IMG/VR virus record: IMGVR_UViG_3300032007_000037
Coordinates: 1-64,000 of that record
From: a virus
Lineage: Duplodnaviria > Caudoviricetes
Strand: one strand, 5' to 3'
DNA: 64,000 nt
The notes beneath the pieces were generated by a model. It was not told the origin of the DNA. It saw only the letters and a program-made list of their open reading frames with translations, and did no database searches. Of the stretch, positions 31,388-53,791 are shown in pieces. The position numbers and the translations under genes are program-made. The first letter of the stretch is position 1. Every line of letters starts with the position of its first letter.

Positions 31388-31473
31388 CTTTCTCTAGCTC
31401 AATTGGATAGAGCGCAGCACTTATAAATAATAGTTGGATGCTGAGGTTCCAAGTTCGAATCTTGGGAGGAAGA
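31388..31473 (+). ncRNA. tRNA-like RNA (Arg-type body) with a 19-nt anticodon loop
   Basis: Normal acceptor, D and T arms; cagca-[cttataaataatagttgga]-tgctg. Confidence 0.7.
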
Positions 31474-31547
31474 CTTTAGATTGGTGAATTGCCATTGGTT
31501 AATTTATTATTGTTGTTATTGAATTATCTTACAGCGGTAAGAGGAAT

Positions 31548-32137
31548 GCCTACTTAGCTCAGCTGGTAGAGCAACAGTTTTCTATGAAAATTAAATGCTA
31601 TGGCGAGAAATCTCATAGTAGAATCTCCCTAATTCGGTGGAAGTCCTTTGTATAATATTCAGATGGGGGAAGCCCATACAGCTAATCAATAATGCTGAAG
31701 AACAATACCGAGCTAAATTGGGAAAGAAAGTAGTGGGAGCTTAAGCAACTATGGATTTTCATTATGAACTGTTAAGTTCGTAAATAATGATTATCACGCT
31801 TTTTCATAAATGCTGATTATATAGGAGATACCTAAGTTGAAATTTGTTACAAAGCAGAGATATACTGTTATATATGAGATACTATCCTCGTTAGAGAATG
31901 TTCCCTCAAAAGGTAAAATACCTGTAACATCTTGCAAGAATTTCAATATGGTAAAAATAGTCCAGACTATAAATGAATAATAGAGTGAGCTGTCACGGCT
32001 GCTATCCTGATATAAAGATAGTAACAAATGTGTAGAGACTGATTAGTTTCAGACTACTCCGGTGAATATTATTCATGCTATGGTAATACAAAGTAGTAGA
32101 AAACTGTAGGTCACAGGTTCGAGACCTGTAGTAGGTA
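31548..32137 (+). tRNA. tRNA (Thr-like body) interrupted in the anticodon loop by a ~517-nt group I intron-like insert
   Basis: 5' half gcctacttagctcagctggtagagcaacagt (31548-31578); 3' half actgtaggtcacaggttcgagacctgtagtaggta (32103-32137). Confidence 0.8.
31583..32099 (+). mobile_element. Group I intron-like RNA, no homing ORF
   Basis: P aattcggtggaa (31631), Q aataccgagc (31704), P3 atctcc/ggagat, P7 gattat (31815)/atagtc (31957), R-like gtgtagagact (32030). Confidence 0.7.
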
Positions 32138-32160
32138 CGGATGGAGAAATGAAGGAAAGA

Positions 32161-32282
32161 GATACATTAGCACAACTGGATAGTGACCCAGACCTTAAAT
32201 CACTGTTCTTAACAGGGTCTTGCATGTTGTCGACAGTAGCAAGAGGTGCTGGGAGTTACAGGTTCGAATCCTGCATGTATCT
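32161..32282 (+). ncRNA. tRNA-like RNA with a branched ~57-nt domain replacing the anticodon loop
   Basis: Acceptor gatacat/atgtatc; D loop aactggata; cccag/ctggg stem; GGTTCGAATCC. Confidence 0.7.
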
Positions 32283-32287
32283 CTGAT

Positions 32288-32368
32288 GGAGAAATGGTGG
32301 AAAGGTAGACACGTCAGATCTAAGCTCTGATACCGTAAGGTGTGTGGGTTCGAATCCCACTTTCCCCA
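32288..32368 (+). tRNA. tRNA-Leu(TAA) with atypical C33
   Basis: tcaga-TCTAAGC-tctga; long variable arm; GGTTCGAATCC. Confidence 0.75.
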
Positions 32369-32465
32369 CAAAGGAGGTATTGCATAGGAGATAAGACCAT
32401 CAAAAGCAAGTCCGCAGAGAGGGCATCCATCCGAGCCAGGTATTATGCTTACCTCCTTTTTTAAA

Positions 32466-32544
32466 ATCTGTATGGTGGAATGGAAGACACGTTAGTTTAA
32501 GAAACTAATGCTTATGCGTGCAGGTTCAAGTCCTGCTACAGACA
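32466..32544 (+). tRNA. tRNA-Leu(AAG)
   Basis: ttagt-TTAAGAA-actaa; Leu-type D arm and variable arm; GGTTCAAGTCC. Confidence 0.75.
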
Positions 32545-32654
32545 CTATTGTAGGTTATTTATGATTAGGTGATTATAATACTTTATTCATGGGACTACTA
32601 GTCAGTGATGATAGGTAGTCCTCTTTTTATTATTAACATTTAATTTTTACTGTC

Positions 32655-34530
32655 ATGGAATTCAAAGTAGGAGATAAAGTAAGACTTAAACAAGATTTAA
32701 TAGCAGGTCAAACATATGATGGCCTCACTTTACTGGCTCCAATGTACTTTTCAGATGTAAGAACAATATCTGCAATCTCAACAAATGGAAATTATTGGCT
32801 TACAGAAGACCCCAGGGGTTTTTGTTATGCAGCAAAAATGCTTGAATACGCTCCTACTTACGAGTGTGGGGATATAGTTAAATTGTCAAGGCCTGAAGAA
32901 TTACCATGTGATTACAGATATGGAATCAGTCCTATAAGAATAGATAATGGCGAAACTCTATTTGTAATTAAGGAAGTAAGAAAAAATGGACTTACAGCAG
33001 CCAGATCTGGAGAAGATGGATATGATTATAGATTATGCCGTATAAATGATACTGGAACAGTACTTGATATAGAGTTAAGAAGGATGTATTGGCTTTCATC
33101 AGGACTTAAATTATTTTCAAAACGCTTGCAATATGACTTCAGTATAGAACCTTGTCCTTCTCCTCTTACAAAGACTGATTTAGAAGCACCTTCTGAAAAG
33201 ACAAAAGGGGATTTAGGTTCTCGTGGGAATAAACTTGAATTATCTGTGCATAAGAAAGAGAGAAAACCCATCTTTAATTTTAAGAACTAATGGCTAGATA
33301 TAGAATAGGAGATAAGGTCTTAATTAAAAAAGACTTGGTCAATAGAAGATATTACGGAAATATCGTGTATTTAAACGCAATGTATATTAAAGGGCCTGTT
33401 ACCATAAGAGAAGTCCACTCTTCTAAGTACTATTTTATATATGAAAAAAAGTCATATCTGTATTCAGAAGATATGTTTGAACCTTATACTGCCCTTAATA
33501 TATTTCCTTTGCCCGAACAAATCAATAAAAGTATTCTAACTAAGATAAAAGAATATCTTTTCAGTTCCAAATCCAAGAAAACAATTCCTCTTATTCTTAA
33601 TGTAAATAAGCATAAACGTAAAATATTATTTAACTTTAGTGAATATGGGTAAATATAAAATTGGGGATAAAGTACTTATTAGAAAAGGTTTAAAACCTGA
33701 TGAACATTATGGAGAAGATTATGTTCTATATATTAATAAAATGTACATAGAAGGTCCCGTTACTATAAAATCTTTATCCTGTTTTAACAATAGTTATTAC
33801 ATTCTAGAATGTCCTGAACATTGGCTTTATGCAGAAGAAATGCTCATGCCGTTTGAATCAGAGAGTCCTGTAGTAGAACTTAATAGAACCGATCTTTCTG
33901 TAAAAGCCGCTTCGCGTCTTGATAATGTTCTCACTGATGTGCTGGGAATAGATGATAGGGCCAGTGTCAGTCAAGTAAGCCATGTTCCTTATAAAAGTAT
34001 TGACAGAGAAGCTGAAAAGACAGAAGAAGAAGAGACATCCTATTTAGATTATTTGGAAAAGAATGCTCCCACTTTACAACTACATATAAAAAGTAAGCAG
34101 AAAGTGCAACTTAACTTTAAATAATATGGAATCGCAATTTAAAAAGGGGGATATTGTAACAATTCTTCCTATAGAAAACATTCCTCAAGAATATGTGGAA
34201 ATTTGCAAAACTCCAGCCAGAGAGAAGTATGCAAAACGTTTAGCAATTATAGATGATGTGCAATGGAATTGTTCTCCTGACAAGTTTATAGATGGCTATG
34301 GCTATCGTCTAATTGTTTTGATGGATAATCAAACTATAGAACTATGGCGCAGTGTACTATCTGTAGGATTAGTTAAATATGCTAATGCTTCTGATATCTC
34401 TATAGACTATAAGGCATACCCATTACAAGGCATTTCAGCATTAAATAGTATTAAACAAATAAACAATAAAGAAAAGCTTGTATTACAAGTAAATAAAAAC
34501 AAATCAAAACTTAAGTTTAATTTTAATTAA
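32655..34530 (+). CDS. Four tandem paralogues (32655-33290, 33290-33652, 33639-34124, 34126-34530) with KOW/SH3-like N-termini
   Basis: Shared (F/Y)K.GD.V N-terminus and basic ...(F/L)NF C-terminus. Confidence 0.7.
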
Positions 34531-34538
34531 AAAACAGT

Positions 34539-34841
34539 ATGAAAAGAATTGTAGCAGCTTTCCAGAACAAGCTGGAAGCAATGAAGGCAGAGAGAAATGT
34601 TAAGCGTGTCTATCGTGCAATGGAGACAGCATCTGACAATGCAAAGGATAAGATTGAGGAGTTGGAAGGTCAGATGGCTGACTTAGTAGAGACTCTGCCC
34701 ACCTGTACAGATTTCAATGGCTTTATTCAGAAGTTGTCAGACCTGATTGAGGAGAAGGAGACCCAGCAGGTTGTTGTTGACCGTCTTGCTGCCATTGAGA
34801 AGTACCTCTCTGAGGATGTAAAGGTACAGGAGACCAAATAA
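34539..34841 (+). CDS. Coiled-coil hypothetical protein
   Basis: 100 aa with high-expression codon usage. Confidence 0.7.
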   Translation: MKRIVAAFQNKLEAMKAERNVKRVYRAMETASDNAKDKIEELEGQMADLVETLPTCTDFNGFIQKLSDLIEEKETQQVVVDRLAAIEKYLSEDVKVQETK

Positions 34842-35306
34842 GCCCAAAATGGGATAATTAGTTTTTTCATAGTTTTTAAATTTCCCCCTATCCGTCTGTG
34901 AAGATAGATAGGGTTTTTATAAGTATTCAATTTACACATTTTTTCATATAAAGGCAGCACTTTTACATAGCGATGTAAGAATCTTTGAACTTTTTCTTTT
35001 AAAGTTATTCGTATTTTTAATTCTTTACAATTCTATTAAGTGCCGCCCCATATAAAGAGTAACTATTTATGTACAATAGGTTTATATAAACACCTCCTTT
35101 CCAAAATTTCACTATTAGTACATGAATGTTACTCTGCCTAAAGAGAGTGAGGCTTGATACCGAGGATGCAGCTGAGGCAAGCATTATAAAGTAGAGATAT
35201 AACCGCTCGAAGCCACTCTGTTTTTCTTTAAATCAGGTGATGAAGTTATCATTTAAATAAGCTGAGAGAGGTTACTTAATAGTTTACTCAAAGCAGCCTG
35301 ATATTT

Positions 35307-35379
35307 GCTCCCTTAGCTCAGCGAATAGAGCATCTCACTTCTAATGAGAGGGTCATTGGTTTGAATCCAATAGGGAGTA
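35307..35379 (+). tRNA. tRNA-Arg(TCT)
   Basis: Acceptor gctccct/agggagt; tctca-CTTCTAA-tgaga; T loop TTTGAAT (variant). Confidence 0.85.
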
Positions 35380-35490
35380 CAAAAGAGACTGATTCTAAAG
35401 GTTTCTGAAAGGAGATAGTCACAATAACTAGGCCAGAGTGGGTAAACCAGATTGGACTGTATGAGTGACTATCTTCTTTCTTTTTATTGA

Positions 35491-35629
35491 GGAATTGATT
35501 GGTGGAACACTGAATCAAGAGAAGTACAGTGGAACAATGGCTCAGCAATCCTGTCTCTCTAAAAGTTCTCTTGAGCTGAAGGGACTGTATAGGTCTTATA
35601 GGAGAGTTCGATTCTCTCCACTTCCACCA
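35491..35629 (+). ncRNA. tRNA-like RNA with encoded ACCA end and no anticodon loop
   Basis: ggaattg/cacttcc-ACCA; T arm gagag-ttcgatt-ctctc; tacagt/actgta stem enclosing ~53 nt. Confidence 0.55.
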
Positions 35630-35661
35630 AATAGTTATTAACTTAAATTAATCATAGTATT

Positions 35662-36450
35662 ATGCAGAAATTAAACGTATTATTAGCATTAAGAGAGAAG
35701 CTAGCTAACCGTTATGCTAACATGGTTGGTGATTACACTGCTTTCTTCAAGAACAAACAAGGTGCTTTTCGTGGTGTTTTAAGAACCCATAGCCCTCTTG
35801 AGGGATATGCTGTAGACCCAACTAAGGTATCAAATGAGAGGGTCGTTACCACTGTCAATGAAAAGATGGATTGGTGGCTTAAAGAAGCTCTTGAGTATAT
35901 CAATACAGCACTTTCCATTGAAGCCAGTAATGGTGAAGGTGCAACTACCGTACCACTGGTATTTGAAGGAAAGACTTATGGCCCTTATCCTGCTACTGTA
36001 CTTCTTCGTCTTAGAGGTATTATAGAAAGTGATAAGTTGGCTCAAATGTTGGCTCAGATTCCTGTAAGAGAGGAAACTATCATATGGAAGCCTTCTACAG
36101 ATGAGGATTATCAGAAGAGGGGTAATATCTTTGAAAATGAGCGTCAGGAAGGTGAAACCAAGACTACTGAAACTCATGAAGAGATTCTCAAAGACCCAAA
36201 TCTTGATCCTAAGGCTCTTCCTTCCAACTATAGAGCACAAGTAACTCAAATTAAGAAGACTGTTAAGACTGGTGATTATACTGTTCAGTTCTTTACAGGT
36301 GAATGGACTCATCAGCAGCGAGCAAATCTTCTTAAGCGTAGAAGTGAATTACTTGATGCCATTAATGTTGCTCTACAGACTGTTAATGACAGAGATGCAG
36401 TTGAATGTAATGTTACAGAGCTTTTCAAGCATCTGATTTATGGTAAATAG
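35662..36450 (+). CDS. Conserved hypothetical protein (262 aa) adjacent to a structured ncRNA
   Basis: Long ORF with high-expression codon usage, embedded among RNA genes. Confidence 0.85.
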   Translation: MQKLNVLLALREKLANRYANMVGDYTAFFKNKQGAFRGVLRTHSPLEGYAVDPTKVSNERVVTTVNEKMDWWLKEALEYINTALSIEASNGEGATTVPLVFEGKTYGPYPATVLLRLRGIIESDKLAQMLAQIPVREETIIWKPSTDEDYQKRGNIFENERQEGETKTTETHEEILKDPNLDPKALPSNYRAQVTQIKKTVKTGDYTVQFFTGEWTHQQRANLLKRRSELLDAINVALQTVNDRDAVECNVTELFKHLIYGK

Positions 36451-36469
36451 AAATTTAAATTAAAATAAT

Positions 36470-36745
36470 TGACCTTAGCTTTAGCCTTATATTAAGCTTT
36501 ATCAAATCCTAGATAGAAAGCATTAATGTTGTGGTCAAAAGCATTATTCAGGTTGATTACAGTATATTACCTATCTGAAGACTACACAGTATCTTGCGAT
36601 ATAGGTTCGATTCCTGTCAGCCCCTCTAATATAACATAAATATGGGGCTGTGGTGTAATGGTTAGCATGTGAGGTTTTTCTAGCTTTAAGTTAAGTGGAT
36701 AGAATGTAATATACAAATGCTTTGGAGGTCAGTATGATGGATTTG
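36470..36745 (+). ncRNA. Large structured RNA containing a circularly permuted tRNA-like domain
   Basis: T arm plus 3' acceptor cagcccc (36601-36624) precedes 5' acceptor ggggctg plus D arm (36644-36668); nested flanking stems. Confidence 0.75.
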
Positions 36746-36759
36746 TTCGCTGATCTCTA

Positions 36760-36832
36760 AGCGGGGTAGCTCAATTGGTAGAGCAATAGTCGTGAAAACT
36801 GTGTGTTGTAGGTTCGATCCCTACCCCCGCTA
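36760..36832 (+). tRNA. tRNA with Phe-like body and aberrant anticodon loop CGTGAAA
   Basis: Acceptor agcgggg/ccccgct; atagt-CGTGAAA-actgt; variable gtgtt; GGTTCGATCCC. Confidence 0.65.
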
Positions 36833-36839
36833 CTATTAA

Positions 36840-36941
36840 GGCAGAATGTGCGAATGGTATAGCAGTATTACTTTCACTCGATAGTAATATGGGATAAGAT
36901 TCTAGGAATTATCTATGGAGGTTCGAGTCCTTCTTCTGCCA
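36840..36941 (+). ncRNA. Class II (Leu-like) tRNA body with enlarged anticodon arm
   Basis: Acceptor ggcagaa/ttctgcc; tattact-[ttcactcgat]-agtaata; long variable arm. Confidence 0.65.
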
Positions 36942-37074
36942 CAAAGTATGCTTGTCATACTGTTTAAAGGGTTTAGTTGCCGAATGCAGAGAATAAAGAC
37001 CTTACCGCTGAAAGTAGCGTAACTGGTTATAAATATTCTCTGCATTCTTTTTTTTCACTTTAACGGCATCAAAA

Positions 37075-39369
37075 ATGATACAATATTCAGAATTAGTACA
37101 ATATATAAAAGACAATCATATCAATTGGAATACAGATTTATTTGATGTTCTAAAGGGTTTCTTTGAGAACAGAAATCAGATAACCCTCCCAAGTATACAT
37201 AACAATGTTCAAGCAAAACTAAATATAAAACCTCAGGATTTCTTTAAACAAGAGCCTTTTAAAGAACCAGATGACGGAGAATATAAAGACCAGGACTTAT
37301 ATAATTTATTTAACACATAAACCTTTTAAATTTAAACAGTATGTCAAAAGCAGAAGAACAAGCTATCAATGACATTAAGTCAGAGATTGAAGACAAAAAC
37401 AGTAAATGCTTTATCACTAAAAGCTTCATTAAGTTTAGACAATTCTTAAATCCAATAATGGATTGTCTGGTAGAGCAACAACTTGATGAACAGGAAAAAC
37501 TAAAACAGCAAAAATATGGAAGGAATCAGTAAATCTAGAAGACAGATTGTAGCTTCATGTTTTATATCCAAGTCTGGAAAACTTGAAGTAGTACGTTTTG
37601 ACAAATATGTACGCTATGAAGGTAACTACGGAAACACTCCTAGGAACACTTATTAAAGGTATTCTAGGCTTATGTATAGCTATGGCTATTGCTTATTGTA
37701 TAGTTGCCATCTCTGCTGGAGATGGTATGTATGGACTTATAGAATTGATGTGGAATGTGTGAATTTAAAGAAGGTGATATTCTCGTTCCTATTGATAAGA
37801 CAAGAGGTTTTGACGAGATTAAGATTCTAAAAAGAGTAAATGACAAGTTCCACTGTAGAATCTTAAATGGAATAACCATAATATCAGTGCATATAGTGGA
37901 AATGATGTATAAGAGGAAGGGTGAATAGCACCTTTCCTCTTTTTTTCTAATTTAAATATAACTAAAATGAAAGAGCCATACACATGGTTAATAGCTATAC
38001 TATTAGCAGTGTTTATAATCTCAGTATTAACCTTTAAATCGGATGACTAATGACAACTATAGCTTTAATTATAATTATATTATTATTCTATATTGTAGGT
38101 GTTGTTTTAGCCTTAGCTGCTATAACAAATGCTAATCTGGAAGAATGTGATGAGCCTCCTATACCTAGAGATTTAGCATTGTTATCTTGGATATTCTTTG
38201 CAGTTATTCTTTTTGGAGCATTTACATGTTTCTTAGGAGAATATTTCGGAAGATATATAGATGACTTTTATTATTATCTACAAGATAAATTTAGGGAAAA
38301 CTCATAAAAACTTATAAGATATGATACTAATATATATTATTTGTTTAGTCTTATATATCGTAGCCTGTTATTGCCTTATACAAGGTAATTACTATGAAAA
38401 TAAACGTAAATGGAGCGGTTATGATAAAGCTGCTTATATGGCCAAACAACAATCAGAGTTTCTATATGGAGTAGGTATGAGTATACTGGTGGGATTAGTA
38501 ATATTTGGAGTATGGGCAATATCAATGATTGAATGATATGGATAAGATTACAAAGAAACTTTCTGATATTATATGGGAAGCAATAGGTATTCCCAAGACA
38601 AGAGAAGAAGTAGACACTTATGCTCAAAATGCAATTAAAGGCCTACTCAATGTAATAAATAAAGATACTCCTAAATGGAGACTTTGTACAGAAGATACTA
38701 TTATATTCAACTATGGTATTGTTCCAGTACAAAGGGGTAATAAGCTTTTGTGGACACACGAAGTTAAAAAAGGAGATCTCTACTTAACTCGCAAAGATTT
38801 ACTTAAACTAGGAAAAGAAGATGGATAATCAAATAGAGAAGTTTGACCCTTCTAAACTGATGGAAGGAGTTAAAGACCGAATAAAGGCAACATTTGTCAG
38901 TCTTATTCCAGATGATGCCTGGGAACAGATGTTGGAAAAAGAACTCTATGTCTTTACTACAGGTAGAATTGTCTCCCATCATGACATAGATTATGAGCAT
39001 AAGGACGAAAATGGGCATTACCTTTATACAGACTGGGAAGAAAGGATTCCTTATTCTGATACTCCGACTTATGATAACTGGGGTCATGTTAAGGAACCTG
39101 CTACAATTTCTCCTCTAAGAAGAATGATAAGAGATATTCTTTATGAAAGATTTCAACAAGACCTTAAAGAATTTCTCAACGAGGGTGATTATAAGCAAAC
39201 TTTTGACGAGCATGGTAAACCTGAAATATCCAAAGCTATTCAGGACATTCTTGTAAATAATGCAGATACCATGTTCCAAAGTTTCTTAGGTTCTGTTTTA
39301 CAGCAAGCATTTTGGAACTTTAAAGGCCAAATACAAGCATCTATTCAAACAGGTAATTTTCAATATTAA
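37075..39369 (+). CDS. Run of small hypothetical genes (37075, 37341, 38050 TM, 38321 TM, 38529, 38821)
   Basis: Co-oriented ORFs. Confidence 0.55.
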
Positions 39370-39574
39370 TATGAGTTGGTATGATGATTGGAAGGATGAT
39401 CAAGAAGCATTACATGATAATACTGAACTTGACCATCTTGCAAGTAACTTGATTGAAGTTGTTTATAAGAAAAAAGATAAACCTTCAAAAATAAGACGTA
39501 AGATATTCAAAAGGAAAGACAACTGTTAATTACAATATTACAGAAAAAAAACAAAGGATAACAAATAATATGGG

Positions 39575-39723
39575 ACCCCTTTAGCTTAACTGGATAAAGC
39601 AATGTTATGTGTTGGTAGGAATTGGGAATTAATTTTTTGGTTCGTGTATTTTGGGTTTGAGCACTACTGACTTTACAAGCGTGTAAAATAACAAGACATT
39701 CAGGTTCGAATCCTGAAAGGGGA
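39575..39723 (+). ncRNA. tRNA-like RNA (Arg-type D loop) with an ~80-nt branched domain in place of the anticodon loop
   Basis: cccctt/aagggg acceptor; gctt-aactggata-aagc; tgttat/ataaca; tcagg-ttcgaat-cctga. Confidence 0.7.
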
Positions 39724-39777
39724 ACTGAGGTAAGGAATAAAATAAAGGAAATAAATAAAATTAAAAGAAAAATAATT

Positions 39778-41570: not shown

Positions 41571-42149
41571 ATGGTAACAATAACTGAAGAAACATGGAAA
41601 GATATTCCGAATTATGAAGGAATATACCAAGCAAGTTCATACGGTAGGATAAAATCATGTGCAAGGGTTATCCATTATAAAAACGGCAAAATTATCCACA
41701 GAAAAGAAAGGCTTCTTTCTTTAATAAAAGGTTTTGGACAATATTTAACGGTTGGTTTGTTTAAAAATAATCACCATATAACATACAATGTTCATTACTT
41801 AATTGCTATTACTTTTATTGAAAATCCTAATAGTTTGCCATGTGTAAATCATAAAGACGAGAACAAATATAATAATAAAGTAGATAATCTTGAATGGTGT
41901 ACTTATTCATACAATACCAAATACAATAACGGTATGAGAAAAAGAATAGATACAAGAAACCTAAAAAACACACATGGCAGTGAAAAGAAAGTCTACCAGT
42001 ATGATTCTAAAGGTAATCTTATAAAAATATGGGATTCTGTGTCATGCGTTGAAAAAGAATTAGGATTTAAAAAAACTAATATAAGTTCATGTTGTTTAAA
42101 TAAGAAAAATCAAGCTTATGGGTATAAATGGTCATACTATCCTCTGTGA
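41571..42149 (+). mobile_element. HNH homing endonuclease (NUMOD4-HNH-NUMOD1)
   Basis: WKDIPNYEGIYQASSYGRIKS; VNHKDENKYNNKVDNLEWCT; VYQYDSKGNLIKIWDSV. Confidence 0.9.
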
Positions 42150-42843: not shown

Positions 42844-43890
42844 ATGGCAACAATTAAAGCATATACTGACAAGCCCAAAAGAAAGTCTTATTTTAAACAC
42901 AATATAGTTTATTGTAAGAAAGGTGACATTGTTGTTACATATCCTAATGTGTTGGTGGCAGAAAAAGAAACAGGTGTTTATTCAGACAGAATATACAAAT
43001 GTTGTAATGGAAAAATGCGCTATGCTGGAGGTTTTGCATGGTCTTATACACCATTTGAAGAATACCCAAACGATGGTAGGATATGGAAAGATGTAGAAGG
43101 ATATGAAAATCTCTATCAGGTATCTACTGATGGATTAGTAAGGACTTCGCATAAAGGACTGTGGGAGATGCTTTCAGCAGGAAGAAAAAAGCACGGATAT
43201 TATAGTGTTTTACTTCACAAAGACGGCAAACGTAAGAATATGTTAATTCATAGATTGGTTGCTAAAGCATTCCTTCCAAACCCCAATAATTATCCATATA
43301 TCAATCATAAAGACGAGAATCCATCAAACAACCATGTTGACAATTTGGAGTGGTGTACCGCAAGTTATAACAATAGTTATGGTGAACATCCAAAGAAGGT
43401 TAGTAAAGCCGCAAAAGAAAGAACAAGGACAGGCAAGTGCTTTGATGGTTCTGATTATCTTGGAAACATGGTCGCTCCTGTACTTCAATATGACCTTAAT
43501 GGTAACTTTATTCATGAATTTGAAAGTGTAAAAGAAGCAAGAGAAAAATATAGCAGCAGGGTACAAGATTGTCTTAGTGGTAAGACAACTCAAGCAGGTG
43601 GTTTCCAATGGAAATACAAAACCAAAGATGCCTATCCTCTTAAAATTGATGCCTACGTAAAGAATGTAAATCAATCTTTATGTTGTTCCCGACCAATAAA
43701 ACAGCTAAAAGATGGTGTTGTTGTTGCAACTTATGGTAGCATAAAGGAAGCAAGTGCAAAGACTGGCTTTGATTATTCTGGAATAAAGAAATGCTTAAAC
43801 GGCACATACAAACAAACTTTTGGTTTTACATGGGAATACGATGATTGTCCTAATTATAAAAAGAAAGTAATTCATTATGGAACAAAGTAA
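42844..43890 (+). mobile_element. HNH homing endonuclease with several NUMOD1 repeats
   Basis: WKDVEGYENLYQVS; IHRLVAKAF; INHKDENPSNNHVDNLEWCT; three GF.W.Y repeats. Confidence 0.9.
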
Positions 43891-52157: not shown

Positions 52158-52463
52158 TCATAAGGTTTCATTAAACTTTTCTACAACTTCTTCTTGAACC
52201 TCAGGAAGAATATGTTCCTCTTGTTCATCATCTACAGGAAAAGCCTTGAGAATTTCTATTTCCTCTTCAATTTCATTAATCCTATCTCTTTTAGCTTGAT
52301 TTTCTGTATAAAGCCCAAGAGGGTCATAAGGAAGAGGTTTATTAGCTCTTTCTGCTTCACCGTTCTTTACATTCTTGTAATCATTACTCTTTAGTTCCGA
52401 TTCAAGATTATTCATCTCTATGTAGAGCAAGTTAAGCTGCTCTTGCTGTTCTTCTCTTGTCAT
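52158..52463 (-). CDS. Hypothetical protein (tail-fibre chaperone-like)
   Basis: L..NDYK..K...RDRINEIE pattern. Confidence 0.45.
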   Translation of the reverse strand: MTREEQQEQLNLLYIEMNNLESELKSNDYKNVKNGEAERANKPLPYDPLGLYTENQAKRDRINEIEEEIEILKAFPVDDEQEEHILPEVQEEVVEKFNETL

Positions 52464-53673
52464 ATTTTTTCAATTTTAAATTATACTTTCTGTTCAATCT
52501 ATCATTAACTGAAAAACCTTTTCTATAACCAAGGCATAATCTTCTTCTATTAAAATATACAAATTTCCACCAGTCTTTTGCTATTAAGTTCTTTAATTTA
52601 ATTAGTCTTTTATAATCTGTCCTATTTTTAAGTAAACCTGAATATGAATTAAAAGACGCTACAAGTGCATCTATGTCTCTATATTTTTGTGTATTTAATG
52701 TTTGGATCTTCTTTATAGCTCTATTATAAGTAACATTATTTAGATGTATTCTATACGGTTTTATATGACTGCCCAGAAATTCTAAACCATATTGATAAGG
52801 TTGGTCATAGAACTTCTTTTCATTAAGTTTAACATTTCTGTCTGCTAATCGAGTTCTAAGTTCAGGTAGTAAACTAAGAGCATACTGATGTTGTTCTTCA
52901 GGTACTATCATAACTATATCATCTACAAAACAAACAAGTTTGATTTTACAATCATCAGTAAGCCATTCAATAATATCATTAATGTATAAACACATGGATG
53001 TCTGCCATATAAGTCTGCCTATAGCAGCCCCAATACCTTCAGGTTTATCAAGAATAGATTTTTCAGGTTTAATGTGTTCTTTCCATAATTGTTTAGGGGT
53101 TCTTAATTCACAATTACCCGCTGGATTACAATGAAGGGCAATCATAGTAAGCCATTTAAAATACGGTTTTTCTGAATCTGGAAAATATATAATCTTATAA
53201 TGATCTATTACTTTATTTATAACAGTTTCAGCATAATTCCACAAAGCATTAGGAAAATAACCGCTAAAATCTATTTTAATACATCTTGTAGGTTTTGTAT
53301 AACCCCAGGATACTTCATTTATATGTTCTATAAGTTGATTTATAGCAGCCATTAAGCCTTTACCAACTCTATTATTAAAAGTATAAGGAGAGAGTAGTTT
53401 GTCTGCTGCTGGAATAAGTCTATCACATATTTCATGGTCAATCTTTCTCCCTTCAAATTCAGTAGCCATGATTTCTCTCCAAGTAGGAATAGAAACAAGG
53501 AAGGCATAATTATGTTTTATCCTTAAAGTCCTATTTAATCTAGCATACATTCCTCTAATTGTAAGGGCTATGATATTATTCTCATAAGCAAGACTATCGC
53601 CACCCCTACGTTTATTCTTCTGAGTGCTAAATACAAGTTCCATTTGTTTAATAAAGAACTCTTCTTCAGACAT
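52432..53673 (-). CDS. DGR reverse transcriptase (start ATG 53673, MSEEEFF)
   Basis: KIDFSGYF, GAAIGRLIWQ, CFVDD, GLEFLG motifs; follows TR. Confidence 0.92.
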   Translation of the reverse strand: MSEEEFFIKQMELVFSTQKNKRRGGDSLAYENNIIALTIRGMYARLNRTLRIKHNYAFLVSIPTWREIMATEFEGRKIDHEICDRLIPAADKLLSPYTFNNRVGKGLMAAINQLIEHINEVSWGYTKPTRCIKIDFSGYFPNALWNYAETVINKVIDHYKIIYFPDSEKPYFKWLTMIALHCNPAGNCELRTPKQLWKEHIKPEKSILDKPEGIGAAIGRLIWQTSMCLYINDIIEWLTDDCKIKLVCFVDDIVMIVPEEQHQYALSLLPELRTRLADRNVKLNEKKFYDQPYQYGLEFLGSHIKPYRIHLNNVTYNRAIKKIQTLNTQKYRDIDALVASFNSYSGLLKNRTDYKRLIKLKNLIAKDWWKFVYFNRRRLCLGYRKGFSVNDRLNRKYNLKLKKYDKRRTARAA

Positions 53674-53694
53674 ATTATATTCTTCAAACAAATT

Positions 53695-53791
53695 CGCCAC
53701 TGCAACACACTGATTACTATTGTTCACGTTGTTGTTGTTCAAATTACCATTGTTACCATTGAAATTCCAAGCATTATTCACGTCATACCTC
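53695..53791 (-). repeat. DGR template repeat (TR), 97 bp
   Basis: 14 AAY codons; differs from VR at 16 positions, all TR adenines. Confidence 0.97.

What the first reader, a model, noticed from the sequence alone, without database searches (positions are those of the whole stretch)
31388..39723. Family of tRNA scaffolds whose anticodon loop is replaced by larger domains
Seen: intact acceptor, D and T arms but no 7-nt anticodon loop at 31388 (19-nt loop), 32161 (~57-nt junction with ctgtt/aacag and tcttgc/gcaaga hairpins), 36840 (7-bp stem, 10-nt loop) and 39575 (~80-nt multi-hairpin with gttggtag/ctactgac and tttaca/tgtaaa). Three share the Arg-type D loop aaYtggata. Preserved pairing inside the inserts argues against random decay. 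Inference: tRNA shells used as stable, processed carriers for functional RNA domains, or decoys for anticodon nucleases, synthetases or uncharged-tRNA sensors; alternatively shrunken intron remnants.
Basis: partly seen in the sequence, partly recalled or inferred. Interest (0 to 1): 0.82.

Follow-up and report, generated by a model that had tools for sequence, protein, structure and literature searches.

The report
Non-decoding tRNA look-alikes in a phage
A 131-kb crAss-like phage carries four real tRNA-shaped genes that cannot read codons as written: one belongs to a widespread, apparently undescribed RNA family that base-pairs with a neighbouring phage RNA, and the other three are one-off tRNA derivatives whose function, if any, is unproven.

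Summary
All four loci score as tRNA with Rfam's model (54.5, 38.3, 31.1 and 28.3 bits; the last lies just under the cut-off of 29). All four keep acceptor, D and T arms and lack a normal 7-nt anticodon loop. Two independent assemblies are 100% identical.

The four are not one family and are not recognisable introns. I found no bulge-helix-bulge motif that gives a tRNA product, no group I core, no similarity to the phage's own 515-nt tRNA intron, and no RtcB, EndA or Rnl2-type ligase gene in the phage.

Element 36840-36941 is the solved case. It belongs to a conserved Leu-tRNA-derived family and scores 69 bits (E 6.5e-14) against a model built without it. In every DUF7873 locus I could read far enough downstream (23 distinct), this RNA ends a module of DUF7873 gene, 5' RNA domain, permuted tRNA mimic, an odd tRNA, and this RNA.

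The functional part is the invariant loop UUCUAGG in the next arm. This loop covaries with an upstream motif: CCUAGA with UCUAGG in most loci, CCGAGA with UCUCGG in one clade, and the two swapped in one locus.

Elements 31388, 32161 and 39575 have no homologues anywhere I searched. Whether they are young mimics or dead genes is undecided.

This scan has found the DUF7873 RNA before on other DNA.

The parts
31388..31473 (+). tRNA-shaped gene with an Arg-type D loop and a 19-nt anticodon loop, CUUAUAA plus 12 extra nt. It lies 5 nt after tRNA-Lys(UUU).
   Evidence: RF00005 54.5 bits. ARAGORN -i calls Ile(UAU) with a 12-nt insert at 37/38. All stems are perfect (sequence). No homologue found.
32161..32282 (+). 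tRNA-shaped gene with a 57-nt region between anticodon-stem halves CCCAG and CUGGG. It lies 4 nt before tRNA-Leu(UAA). The region contains an inner hairpin, CACUG-UUCUUAA-CAGGG.
   Evidence: RF00005 28.3 bits, E 0.015 in a 10-kb search. ARAGORN -i calls Lys(CUU) with a 50-nt insert. Arm fold z -2.8. Inner anticodon-like hairpin found. No homologue found.
36840..36941 (+). Leu-tRNA-derived mimic, the last RNA of the DUF7873 module. Hairpin 1 (36866-36889) is variable. Hairpin 2 (36893-36913) carries the invariant loop motif UUCUAGG (36900-36906).
   Evidence: RF00005 38.3 bits. Family model R1, built without this sequence, scores it at 69.1 bits, E 6.5e-14. Family alignment A4 with covarying arms. 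Per-sequence folds.
36507..36513 (+). UCCUAGA, the pairing partner of the 36901-36907 loop. It sits in the 5' RNA domain closed by UUGACC/GGUCAA.
   Evidence: Motif pairs in 23 distinct loci: CCUAGA/UCUAGG in 18, CCGAGA/UCUCGG in 4, swapped in 1. The sequence context is the same across loci. The variant loci form one clade.
39575..39724 (+). tRNA-shaped gene with an Arg-type D loop and an insert of about 83 nt that can be drawn as a three-way junction. It stands alone between two small ORFs.
   Evidence: RF00005 31.1 bits. The fold is not better than shuffles, z -0.3. Only the 23-nt T-arm plus acceptor strand recurs, in one 185-kb phage. No homologue found.
35662..36450 (+). DUF7873 gene (262 aa, TAG stop) that heads the module containing 36840.
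   Evidence: Pfam PF25283, 2e-30. 39 related loci in metagenomes and 2 in viral contigs. AlphaFold model pLDDT 88.5 with no clear fold match.
36760..36832 (+). Module tRNA ('tRNA-X') with loop CGUGAAA, which has G at position 33. Its triplet differs between loci.
   Evidence: ARAGORN. Comparison across 22 loci: CCA, CUA, UUU, GUU, UUC, CAU, GCA, GAU and others, mostly with G33.
36982..37055 (+). Long hairpin followed by U8, a terminator-like end of the module's transcription unit.
   Evidence: Fold -35.5 kcal/mol, z -4.2.

Best explanation
The four loci are real tRNA-derived genes that cannot decode as written. They are four separate things, not one family.

Shown: element 36840-36941 is a member of a conserved family derived from a Leu-type tRNA. 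The features are a 3-bp D stem, a GAAUGGUAUA-type D loop and an invariant discriminator A. It forms the 3' end of the RNA module that follows DUF7873 genes in many phages. Its extra arm presents the invariant loop UUCUAGG, which covaries with CCUAGA in the module's 5' domain.

Inferred: after RNase P and RNase Z-type cuts free it from the neighbouring tRNA, this tRNA-shaped RNA docks by a 6-7-bp loop contact onto the 5' domain of the DUF7873 RNA, or it does so within the precursor. This resembles the way a T-box specifier holds a tRNA anticodon. It would add a second tRNA-like head, perhaps one that can be charged with leucine, to a DUF7873 ribonucleoprotein of unknown activity.

Shown: elements 31388, 32161 and 39575 are lineage-specific tRNA derivatives with intact shells and enlarged anticodon regions.

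Inferred, roughly even odds: they are either young non-decoding mimics tolerated or used by the phage, or recently inactivated tRNA genes.
For: All four score with the tRNA model and are identical in independent assemblies.

Family membership of 36840: model R1, built from 19 homologues without the window, scores it at 69.1 bits, E 6.5e-14. The next best hit in the window scores 38.7 bits.

Arms of the family: 11 of 14 consensus pairs keep pairing through changes on both sides. Both central hairpins fold in 10 of the 13 two-hairpin members despite different sequences; the constrained fold gives another structure for L109, L118 and L121.

Module position: the RNA lies 450-680 nt downstream of DUF7873, after a tRNA, in every locus with enough downstream DNA. 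DUF7873 identity across these loci is 43-86%.

Loop-to-5'-motif covariation is shown. It amounts to two independent events: one clade with A:U changed to C:G, and one locus with the motifs swapped.

A terminator-like hairpin closes the unit.

For the other three: perfect or near-perfect shells but no homologue in any search.
Against: No expression, processing or charging data exist. The pairing rests on only two independent compensatory events, and the core CUAG is a palindrome, so self-pairing or protein recognition of both motifs is not excluded.

I located the motif pairs by searching for these strings, although their sequence contexts are homologous.

In a few members (L102, L130) the motif hairpin sits where an anticodon arm would, and ARAGORN calls a CUA suppressor tRNA.

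DUF7873 has no recognisable fold, so the function of the particle is unknown.

For 31388, 32161 and 39575 the mimic reading has no positive evidence beyond intact shells. The 39575 and 31388 inserts fold no better than shuffles.
Confidence: 0.6

Rival explanations
1. The inserts are introns. The genes encode normal tRNAs, for example Ile-UAU from 31388 and Lys-CUU from 32161, that are spliced after transcription.
For: In 31388 the loop begins with a canonical CUUAUA|A, and the 12 extra nt sit exactly at the 37/38 position. 32161 reads ACCUUA|A in the same way. The next gene, 31548-32138, does carry a 515-nt group I-type intron shared with other phage tRNAs. An AT-rich phage would plausibly want Ile-UAU.
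Against: No bulge-helix-bulge motif occurs in 31388. The few matches in the others give products that are not tRNAs.

Inserts of 12-83 nt are too small for group I ribozymes. RF00028 and all other Rfam ribozyme families give no hit there. The inserts show no similarity to the phage's own intron family.

The phage has no EndA, RtcB or Rnl2-type ligase gene. No protein-dependent tRNA splicing is known in Bacteroidota (established knowledge).

32161 has C33. 36840 and 39575 have no canonical loop at either boundary.
Confidence: 0.1
2. Elements 31388, 32161 and 39575 are dead tRNA genes, inactivated by insertions in the anticodon loop and not yet eroded.
For: No homologue in any collection. The closest relatives by TerL (66-72% identity) lack them in the stretches fetched. 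32161 and 39575 already carry stem mismatches (G10-A25, A49-C65, A1-A72, A27-A43) and 32161 has C33. The inserts of 31388 and 39575 fold no better than shuffles. Other agents of this scan reached the same verdict for similar one-off genes in other phages (unchecked).
Against: Three separate genes were hit only in the anticodon region, while 31388 keeps every stem pair perfect. Phage genomes usually purge dead DNA. The 32161 arm is more stable than all 200 shuffles. Insert-bearing tRNA-like genes recur at low frequency in related phage clusters.
Confidence: 0.3
3. Element 36840 and its family are amber-suppressor tRNAs whose anticodon is the CUA within UUCUAGG.
For: The loop reads U-U-CUA-G-G. 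In short members the hairpin sits at the anticodon-arm position and ARAGORN calls tRNA(CUA). crAss-like phages are known to carry suppressor tRNAs (PMC7886860). LeuRS does not read the anticodon (established knowledge).
Against: The triplet changes to CUC exactly where the upstream motif changes from U to G, and in L133 the two motifs are swapped. Decoding does not predict either result.

The loop is 11-13 nt in most members, and in L128 the motif is not in a hairpin. In this phage it lies in the extra-arm position behind a closed hairpin.

The phage uses the standard code, with TAG ending 15 of 169 ORFs, including DUF7873 itself.
Confidence: 0.07
4. The elements are decoys that soak up host anticodon nucleases, synthetases or other tRNA-binding defence proteins.
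For: The shells are intact, with elbow and acceptor features that many tRNA-binding proteins use. 32161 displays two CUU-containing loops. Phage tRNAs that evade anticodon nucleases are documented (established knowledge).
Against: No defence or counter-defence gene is linked to them. There is no conservation. Anticodon nucleases need the native anticodon loop, which is altered or buried here. Nothing here could test this idea.
Confidence: 0.1

Closest known systems
YrlA-type bacterial and phage Y RNAs (Rfam RF02553; Chen et al. 2014, PMC4201824)
   Same: Non-coding RNAs that imitate the tRNA acceptor, D and T arms, cannot decode, and work in an RNA-protein particle. They occur in phages too.
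   Different: YrlA is circularly permuted and binds Ro60. Element 36840 has the normal 5'-3' order. The phage has no TROVE/Ro60 gene. RF02553 gives only a spurious 23-bit match across two adjacent tRNAs. The partner gene here is DUF7873.
T-box riboswitch specifier-anticodon contact
   Same: A structured RNA holds a tRNA-shaped RNA by base pairing to a loop that looks like an anticodon loop. The triplet in that loop covaries with the partner: UAG with CUA, GAG with CUC.
   Different: There are 6-7 pairs rather than 3-4. The partner is a dedicated mimic, not a cellular tRNA. I saw no T-box sequence, antiterminator or downstream regulated gene, and no Rfam T-box hit appears in the E<=10 list. This is a resemblance in how it works, not membership.
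Phage T4 stable RNAs C and D in its tRNA cluster, and engineered tRNA scaffolds (both from memory, not tested here)
   Same: Small stable RNAs that are co-transcribed and processed with phage tRNAs, with a tRNA shell stabilising a non-tRNA part.
   Different: No sequence or structural relation was tested. The T4 RNAs have no known pairing partner.
Intron-bearing tRNA genes (archaeal BHB introns; bacterial group I introns)
   Same: Extra sequence in or next to the anticodon loop. In 31388 and 32161 it lies at the classical 37/38 site.
   Different: No BHB motif, no ribozyme core and no splicing enzymes were found.

Membership tests
Canonical tRNA (Rfam RF00005) | Cloverleaf with acceptor, D and T arms and conserved elbow bases | tested here: met
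   CM scores of 54.5, 38.3, 31.1 and 28.3 bits. GG in the D loop and UUCGAAU or UUCGAGU in the T loop, read.
Canonical tRNA (Rfam RF00005) | 5-bp anticodon stem closed by a 7-nt loop with U33 and a purine at 37 | tested here: not met
   Loops or inserts of 19, 57, 10 and about 83 nt. Standard ARAGORN finds none of the four. The candidate inner loops are listed.
DUF7873-module Leu-type tRNA mimic (family defined here, model R1) | Match to a covariance model built from other members | tested here: met
   36840-36941 scores 69.1 bits, E 6.5e-14. 31388, 32161 and 39575 are not hit at E<=1.
DUF7873-module Leu-type tRNA mimic (family defined here, model R1) | Position downstream of a DUF7873 gene, a permuted tRNA-like domain and a tRNA | tested here: met
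   Window order is 35662-36450, about 36601-36680, 36760-36832, then 36840-36941. The same order holds in L087, L088 and the metagenome loci.
DUF7873-module Leu-type tRNA mimic (family defined here, model R1) | Loop UUCU(A/C)GG complementary to an upstream AAUCC(U/G)AGAU | tested here: met
   UCUAGGA at 36901-36907 and UCCUAGA at 36507-36513.
tRNA with archaeal/eukaryal-type intron | Bulge-helix-bulge motif at the exon-intron borders that yields a tRNA-sized product | tested here: not met
   The script found none in 31388. The matches in the others cut through the T arm or leave products of 45-113 nt that are not tRNAs.
tRNA with archaeal/eukaryal-type intron | Splicing endonuclease and RNA ligase available | tested here: inconclusive
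   No PF01974, PF01139 or PF09414 match in the phage. The host is unknown. Bacteroides thetaiotaomicron has RtcB (control).
Group I intron | Catalytic core (P3-P7 and the rest), usually over 200 nt | tested here: not met
   Inserts are 12-83 nt. No RF00028 hit falls there. No similarity to the phage's 515-nt tRNA intron or its relatives.
YrlA / Y RNA (RF02553) | Match to the family model; Ro60 (TROVE) partner | tested here: not met
   Only a 23.4-bit match (gathering score 69), spanning tRNA-Lys and 31388. No TROVE gene in the phage.
Amber suppressor tRNA | CUA in a 7-nt loop of the anticodon arm, in a genome that reads UAG as sense | tested here: not met
   11-nt loop in the second central arm. 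TAG ends 15 of 169 ORFs and coding density is 88% under the standard code. The triplet covaries with the upstream motif.

The most novel reading that the evidence does not exclude
The DUF7873 module is a phage ribonucleoprotein that recruits its own dedicated Leu-type tRNA mimic through a specifier-like 6-7-bp loop contact. This would be a trans-acting counterpart of the T-box-tRNA contact, used to sense or exploit aminoacylation, or to present a charged tRNA-like end to an enzyme. The three orphan elements would be further, lineage-specific modules of the same strategy.
Probability: 0.2. Interest if true: 0.85.

Novelty: new variant of a known kind. Interest (0 to 1): 0.6.

Why it matters
Phage tRNA clusters are usually read as codon-usage helpers. 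Here at least one tRNA-shaped gene is a conserved structural RNA that pairs with a second phage RNA next to a protein of unknown fold, and it occurs in phages of rumen and human-gut samples.

I found no description of this partner RNA in Rfam or in the papers I searched. Gene finders label its relatives as Pyl, Ala, Ser, Ile or undetermined tRNAs. That can mislead calls of suppressor tRNAs and of genetic-code change in crAss-like phages.

The pairing gives a simple, testable handle on the function of the DUF7873 particle: compensatory mutants.

Tried and rejected
- **Homologue searches.** Exact-pattern scans of viral contigs with arm sequences of 39575, 32161 (twice) and 31388 gave nothing useful. 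BLAST of 31388 and 32161 against GenBank phages matched only generic tRNA halves or nothing.
- **Neighbouring protein 32655-33290.** It has no relatives, only two further contigs of the same phage.
- **Shrunken-intron idea.** Local alignment of each insert to four copies of the phage-type tRNA intron scored no better than shuffles.
- **Antisense cargo idea.** No match over 12 nt to either strand of the 131-kb genome. Loop complements of 7-10 nt are at the chance level.
- **Known ribozymes or RNA families in the inserts.** None at E<=10.
- **DUF7873 function.** No PDB sequence match. Best Foldseek match E 7e-3 with TM 0.14. Best VIA match Z 6.5 on a helical protein.
- **Specifier for tRNA-X.** I looked for an upstream sequence complementary to its variable anticodon and found no consistent match.
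- **My own early guess withdrawn.** I first read the 515-nt-intron tRNA as an ochre suppressor. That was a miscount.


Full report
**What the window is.** It is the first 64 kb of a 131,166-bp IMG/VR virus record with direct terminal repeats. The major head protein and large terminase match crAss-type PHROG families, and the genome has ORFs of 2610 and 2730 aa. The standard code fits: 169 ORFs cover 88% of the genome, with stops TAA 116, TGA 38 and TAG 15. A plus-strand block at 31-40 kb holds six ordinary-looking tRNA genes and several odd ones.

**The observation.** Rfam's tRNA model matches all four reported loci. The scores are 54.5 bits (31388-31473), 38.3 (36840-36941), 31.1 (39575-39724) and 28.3 (32161-32282, just under the gathering score of 29). 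In every alignment the surplus bases lie in the anticodon region. Standard ARAGORN misses them and intron mode calls them. The inserts are only partly more structured than chance: z is -2.8 and -6.4 for the arms of 32161 and 36840, but -1.4 and -0.3 for 31388 and 39575.

**Not recognisable introns.** The neighbouring gene 31548-32138 does hold a 515-nt insert. That insert shares long conserved blocks with inserts in tRNA genes of two other phages, so it is a real intron family even though RF00028 misses it. The four inserts studied here show no similarity to it. They are far too short for a group I core and match no Rfam family. A script for the bulge-helix-bulge motif found none in 31388 and only matches that destroy the tRNA in the others. 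The phage has no EndA, RtcB or Rnl2-type ligase gene. Only 31388 (CUUAUA|12 nt|A) and, less well, 32161 (ACCUUA|50 nt|A, with C33) would give a normal loop if the insert were removed.

**Element 36840 belongs to a conserved family.** The gene at 35662-36450 is a DUF7873 protein. Its relatives in two viral contigs and 39 metagenome contigs (identity 43-86%) lie in tRNA clusters. Downstream of each I found the same order of parts: a 5' RNA domain, a circularly permuted tRNA-like domain, a tRNA whose triplet varies and which mostly has G33, and then a tRNA-like RNA.

Twenty distinct copies of that last RNA align with element 36840 (A4). The acceptor and T stems keep pairing through many double changes, with 11 of 14 consensus pairs affected. 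The D arm is of the Leu type and the discriminator A is invariant. A covariance model built from 19 members without the window scores 36840-36941 at 69.1 bits, E 6.5e-14. The next best hit in the window scores 38.7 bits, and none of the other three elements is hit.

Per-sequence folds show two central hairpins. It varies in length and sequence and is absent in five members. The second carries an 11-13-nt loop with the invariant UUCUAGG.

**The loop pairs with the 5' domain.** In 18 distinct loci an upstream AAUCCUAGAU accompanies the loop UUCUAGG. In four loci the upstream motif is AAUCCGAGAU and the loop is UUCUCGG, so an A:U pair becomes C:G. In one locus the two motifs have changed places. 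The upstream motif sits in the same conserved context in all loci, inside a domain closed by UUGACC/GGUCAA. On a DUF7873 tree, the three variant loci included form one clade, with support 93/90. The evidence therefore amounts to two independent compensatory events plus invariance elsewhere. This is good support but not overwhelming. In the window the pair is 36901-36907 with 36507-36513, seven base pairs. A long hairpin followed by U8 ends the unit at 36982-37055.

**Suppressor reading.** UUCUAGG could be read as a CUA anticodon loop, and ARAGORN does so for a few short members. The covariation, the swap, the oversized loops, a member in which the motif is not in a hairpin (L128), and this phage's normal use of TAG stops all argue against decoding.

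**The other three elements.** I found no homologue of 31388, 32161 or 39575. I searched 600 kb of related phage loci, GenBank phages, IMG/VR by exact arm patterns and this scan's own index. In the stretches I fetched, the closest relatives by terminase (66-72% identity) have one to three tRNA genes and none of these elements. The acceptor stems of the three differ from each other and from the Arg and Lys tRNAs of those relatives. Similar one-off, insert-bearing tRNA-like genes occur at low frequency in other phage clusters. Nothing distinguishes a young mimic from a freshly broken gene.

**How it most likely works.** Shown: 36840 is a conserved tRNA-shaped RNA whose loop covaries with a site in the DUF7873-linked RNA. 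Inferred: the tandem tRNA layout lets RNase P and RNase Z-type enzymes release it. It then docks on the 5' domain through the loop contact, or does so already in the precursor. This would give the DUF7873 particle a second tRNA-like head with a Leu-type acceptor end that may be charged. What the particle does is unknown. The DUF7873 model is confident (pLDDT 88.5) but has no convincing fold match.

**Comparison with known systems.** The closest known kind is the YrlA class of tRNA-mimicking Y RNAs. Membership fails on the family model and on the missing Ro60 gene. The loop contact works like a T-box specifier-anticodon contact but is not a T-box.

**Earlier notes of this scan.** Earlier reports of this scan describe the DUF7873 gene plus permuted tRNA mimic in several other genomes. 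In their summaries I saw no mention of this third RNA or of its pairing, but I read only the summaries.

**Verdict.** One element is a new member of an apparently undescribed, conserved phage RNA module. The other three remain unexplained.

Noticed in passing
window 31548-32138: tRNA gene with a 515-nt insert that shares long conserved blocks with inserts in tRNA genes of two other phages (L087, G003). RF00028 does not detect it. The G003 copy reads CUCAU|intron|AA (CAU, intron at 36/37). Ours reads UUUCU|...G|AAA, which is UCU with an 8-nt loop under the rule that splicing follows a U at the 5' site and a G at the 3' site.
   Followed up: partly
window 35498-35631: Structured RNA of about 130 nt after tRNA-Arg(UCU), with a T-arm-like hairpin and an acceptor-like end ...CCACCA. 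It is 83-89% identical in relative G001, next to its tRNA-Arg, and has three compensatory changes in the T-like stem. Rfam tmRNA matches only its 3' end (24.7 bits).
   Followed up: partly
window 36760-36832 and homologues: The module tRNA has G33 instead of the near-universal U33 in most loci, and its triplet differs widely between loci (UGA, CCA, CUA, UUU, GUU, UUC, CAU, GCA, GAU, AUU) on a conserved body. I found no complementary upstream site.
   Followed up: partly
window 32206-32212 and 32497-32503: The inner hairpin loop UUCUUAA of element 32161 is the exact complement of the anticodon loop UUAAGAA of the unusual tRNA-Leu(AAG, A34), which lies 180 nt downstream. This could be chance, roughly 1 in 10.
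   Followed up: no
L134:594-742, L099:2466-2577, L100:4568-4677, L104:2807-2917: Other insert-bearing tRNA-like genes in DUF7873-carrying phages. One has a T-arm plus acceptor minihelix nested after CUUAUA. Another is a recurrent family of about 110 nt containing UUACUUAYAAUAUC.
   Followed up: no
window 52432-53781 (minus strand): A 449-aa reverse transcriptase (phrog_1423, 1.3e-28), possibly part of a diversity-generating retroelement.
   Followed up: no
window 41571-42149 and 42844-43890: Two HNH/NUMOD homing-endonuclease-like genes a few kb downstream of the tRNA region.
   Followed up: no
L098 (Prevotella phage Lak-A1, MK250015.1 34018-39269): A DUF7873 relative in Lak phages is not followed by any tRNA or by the motif pair, so the gene-RNA link is not universal.
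   Followed up: partly
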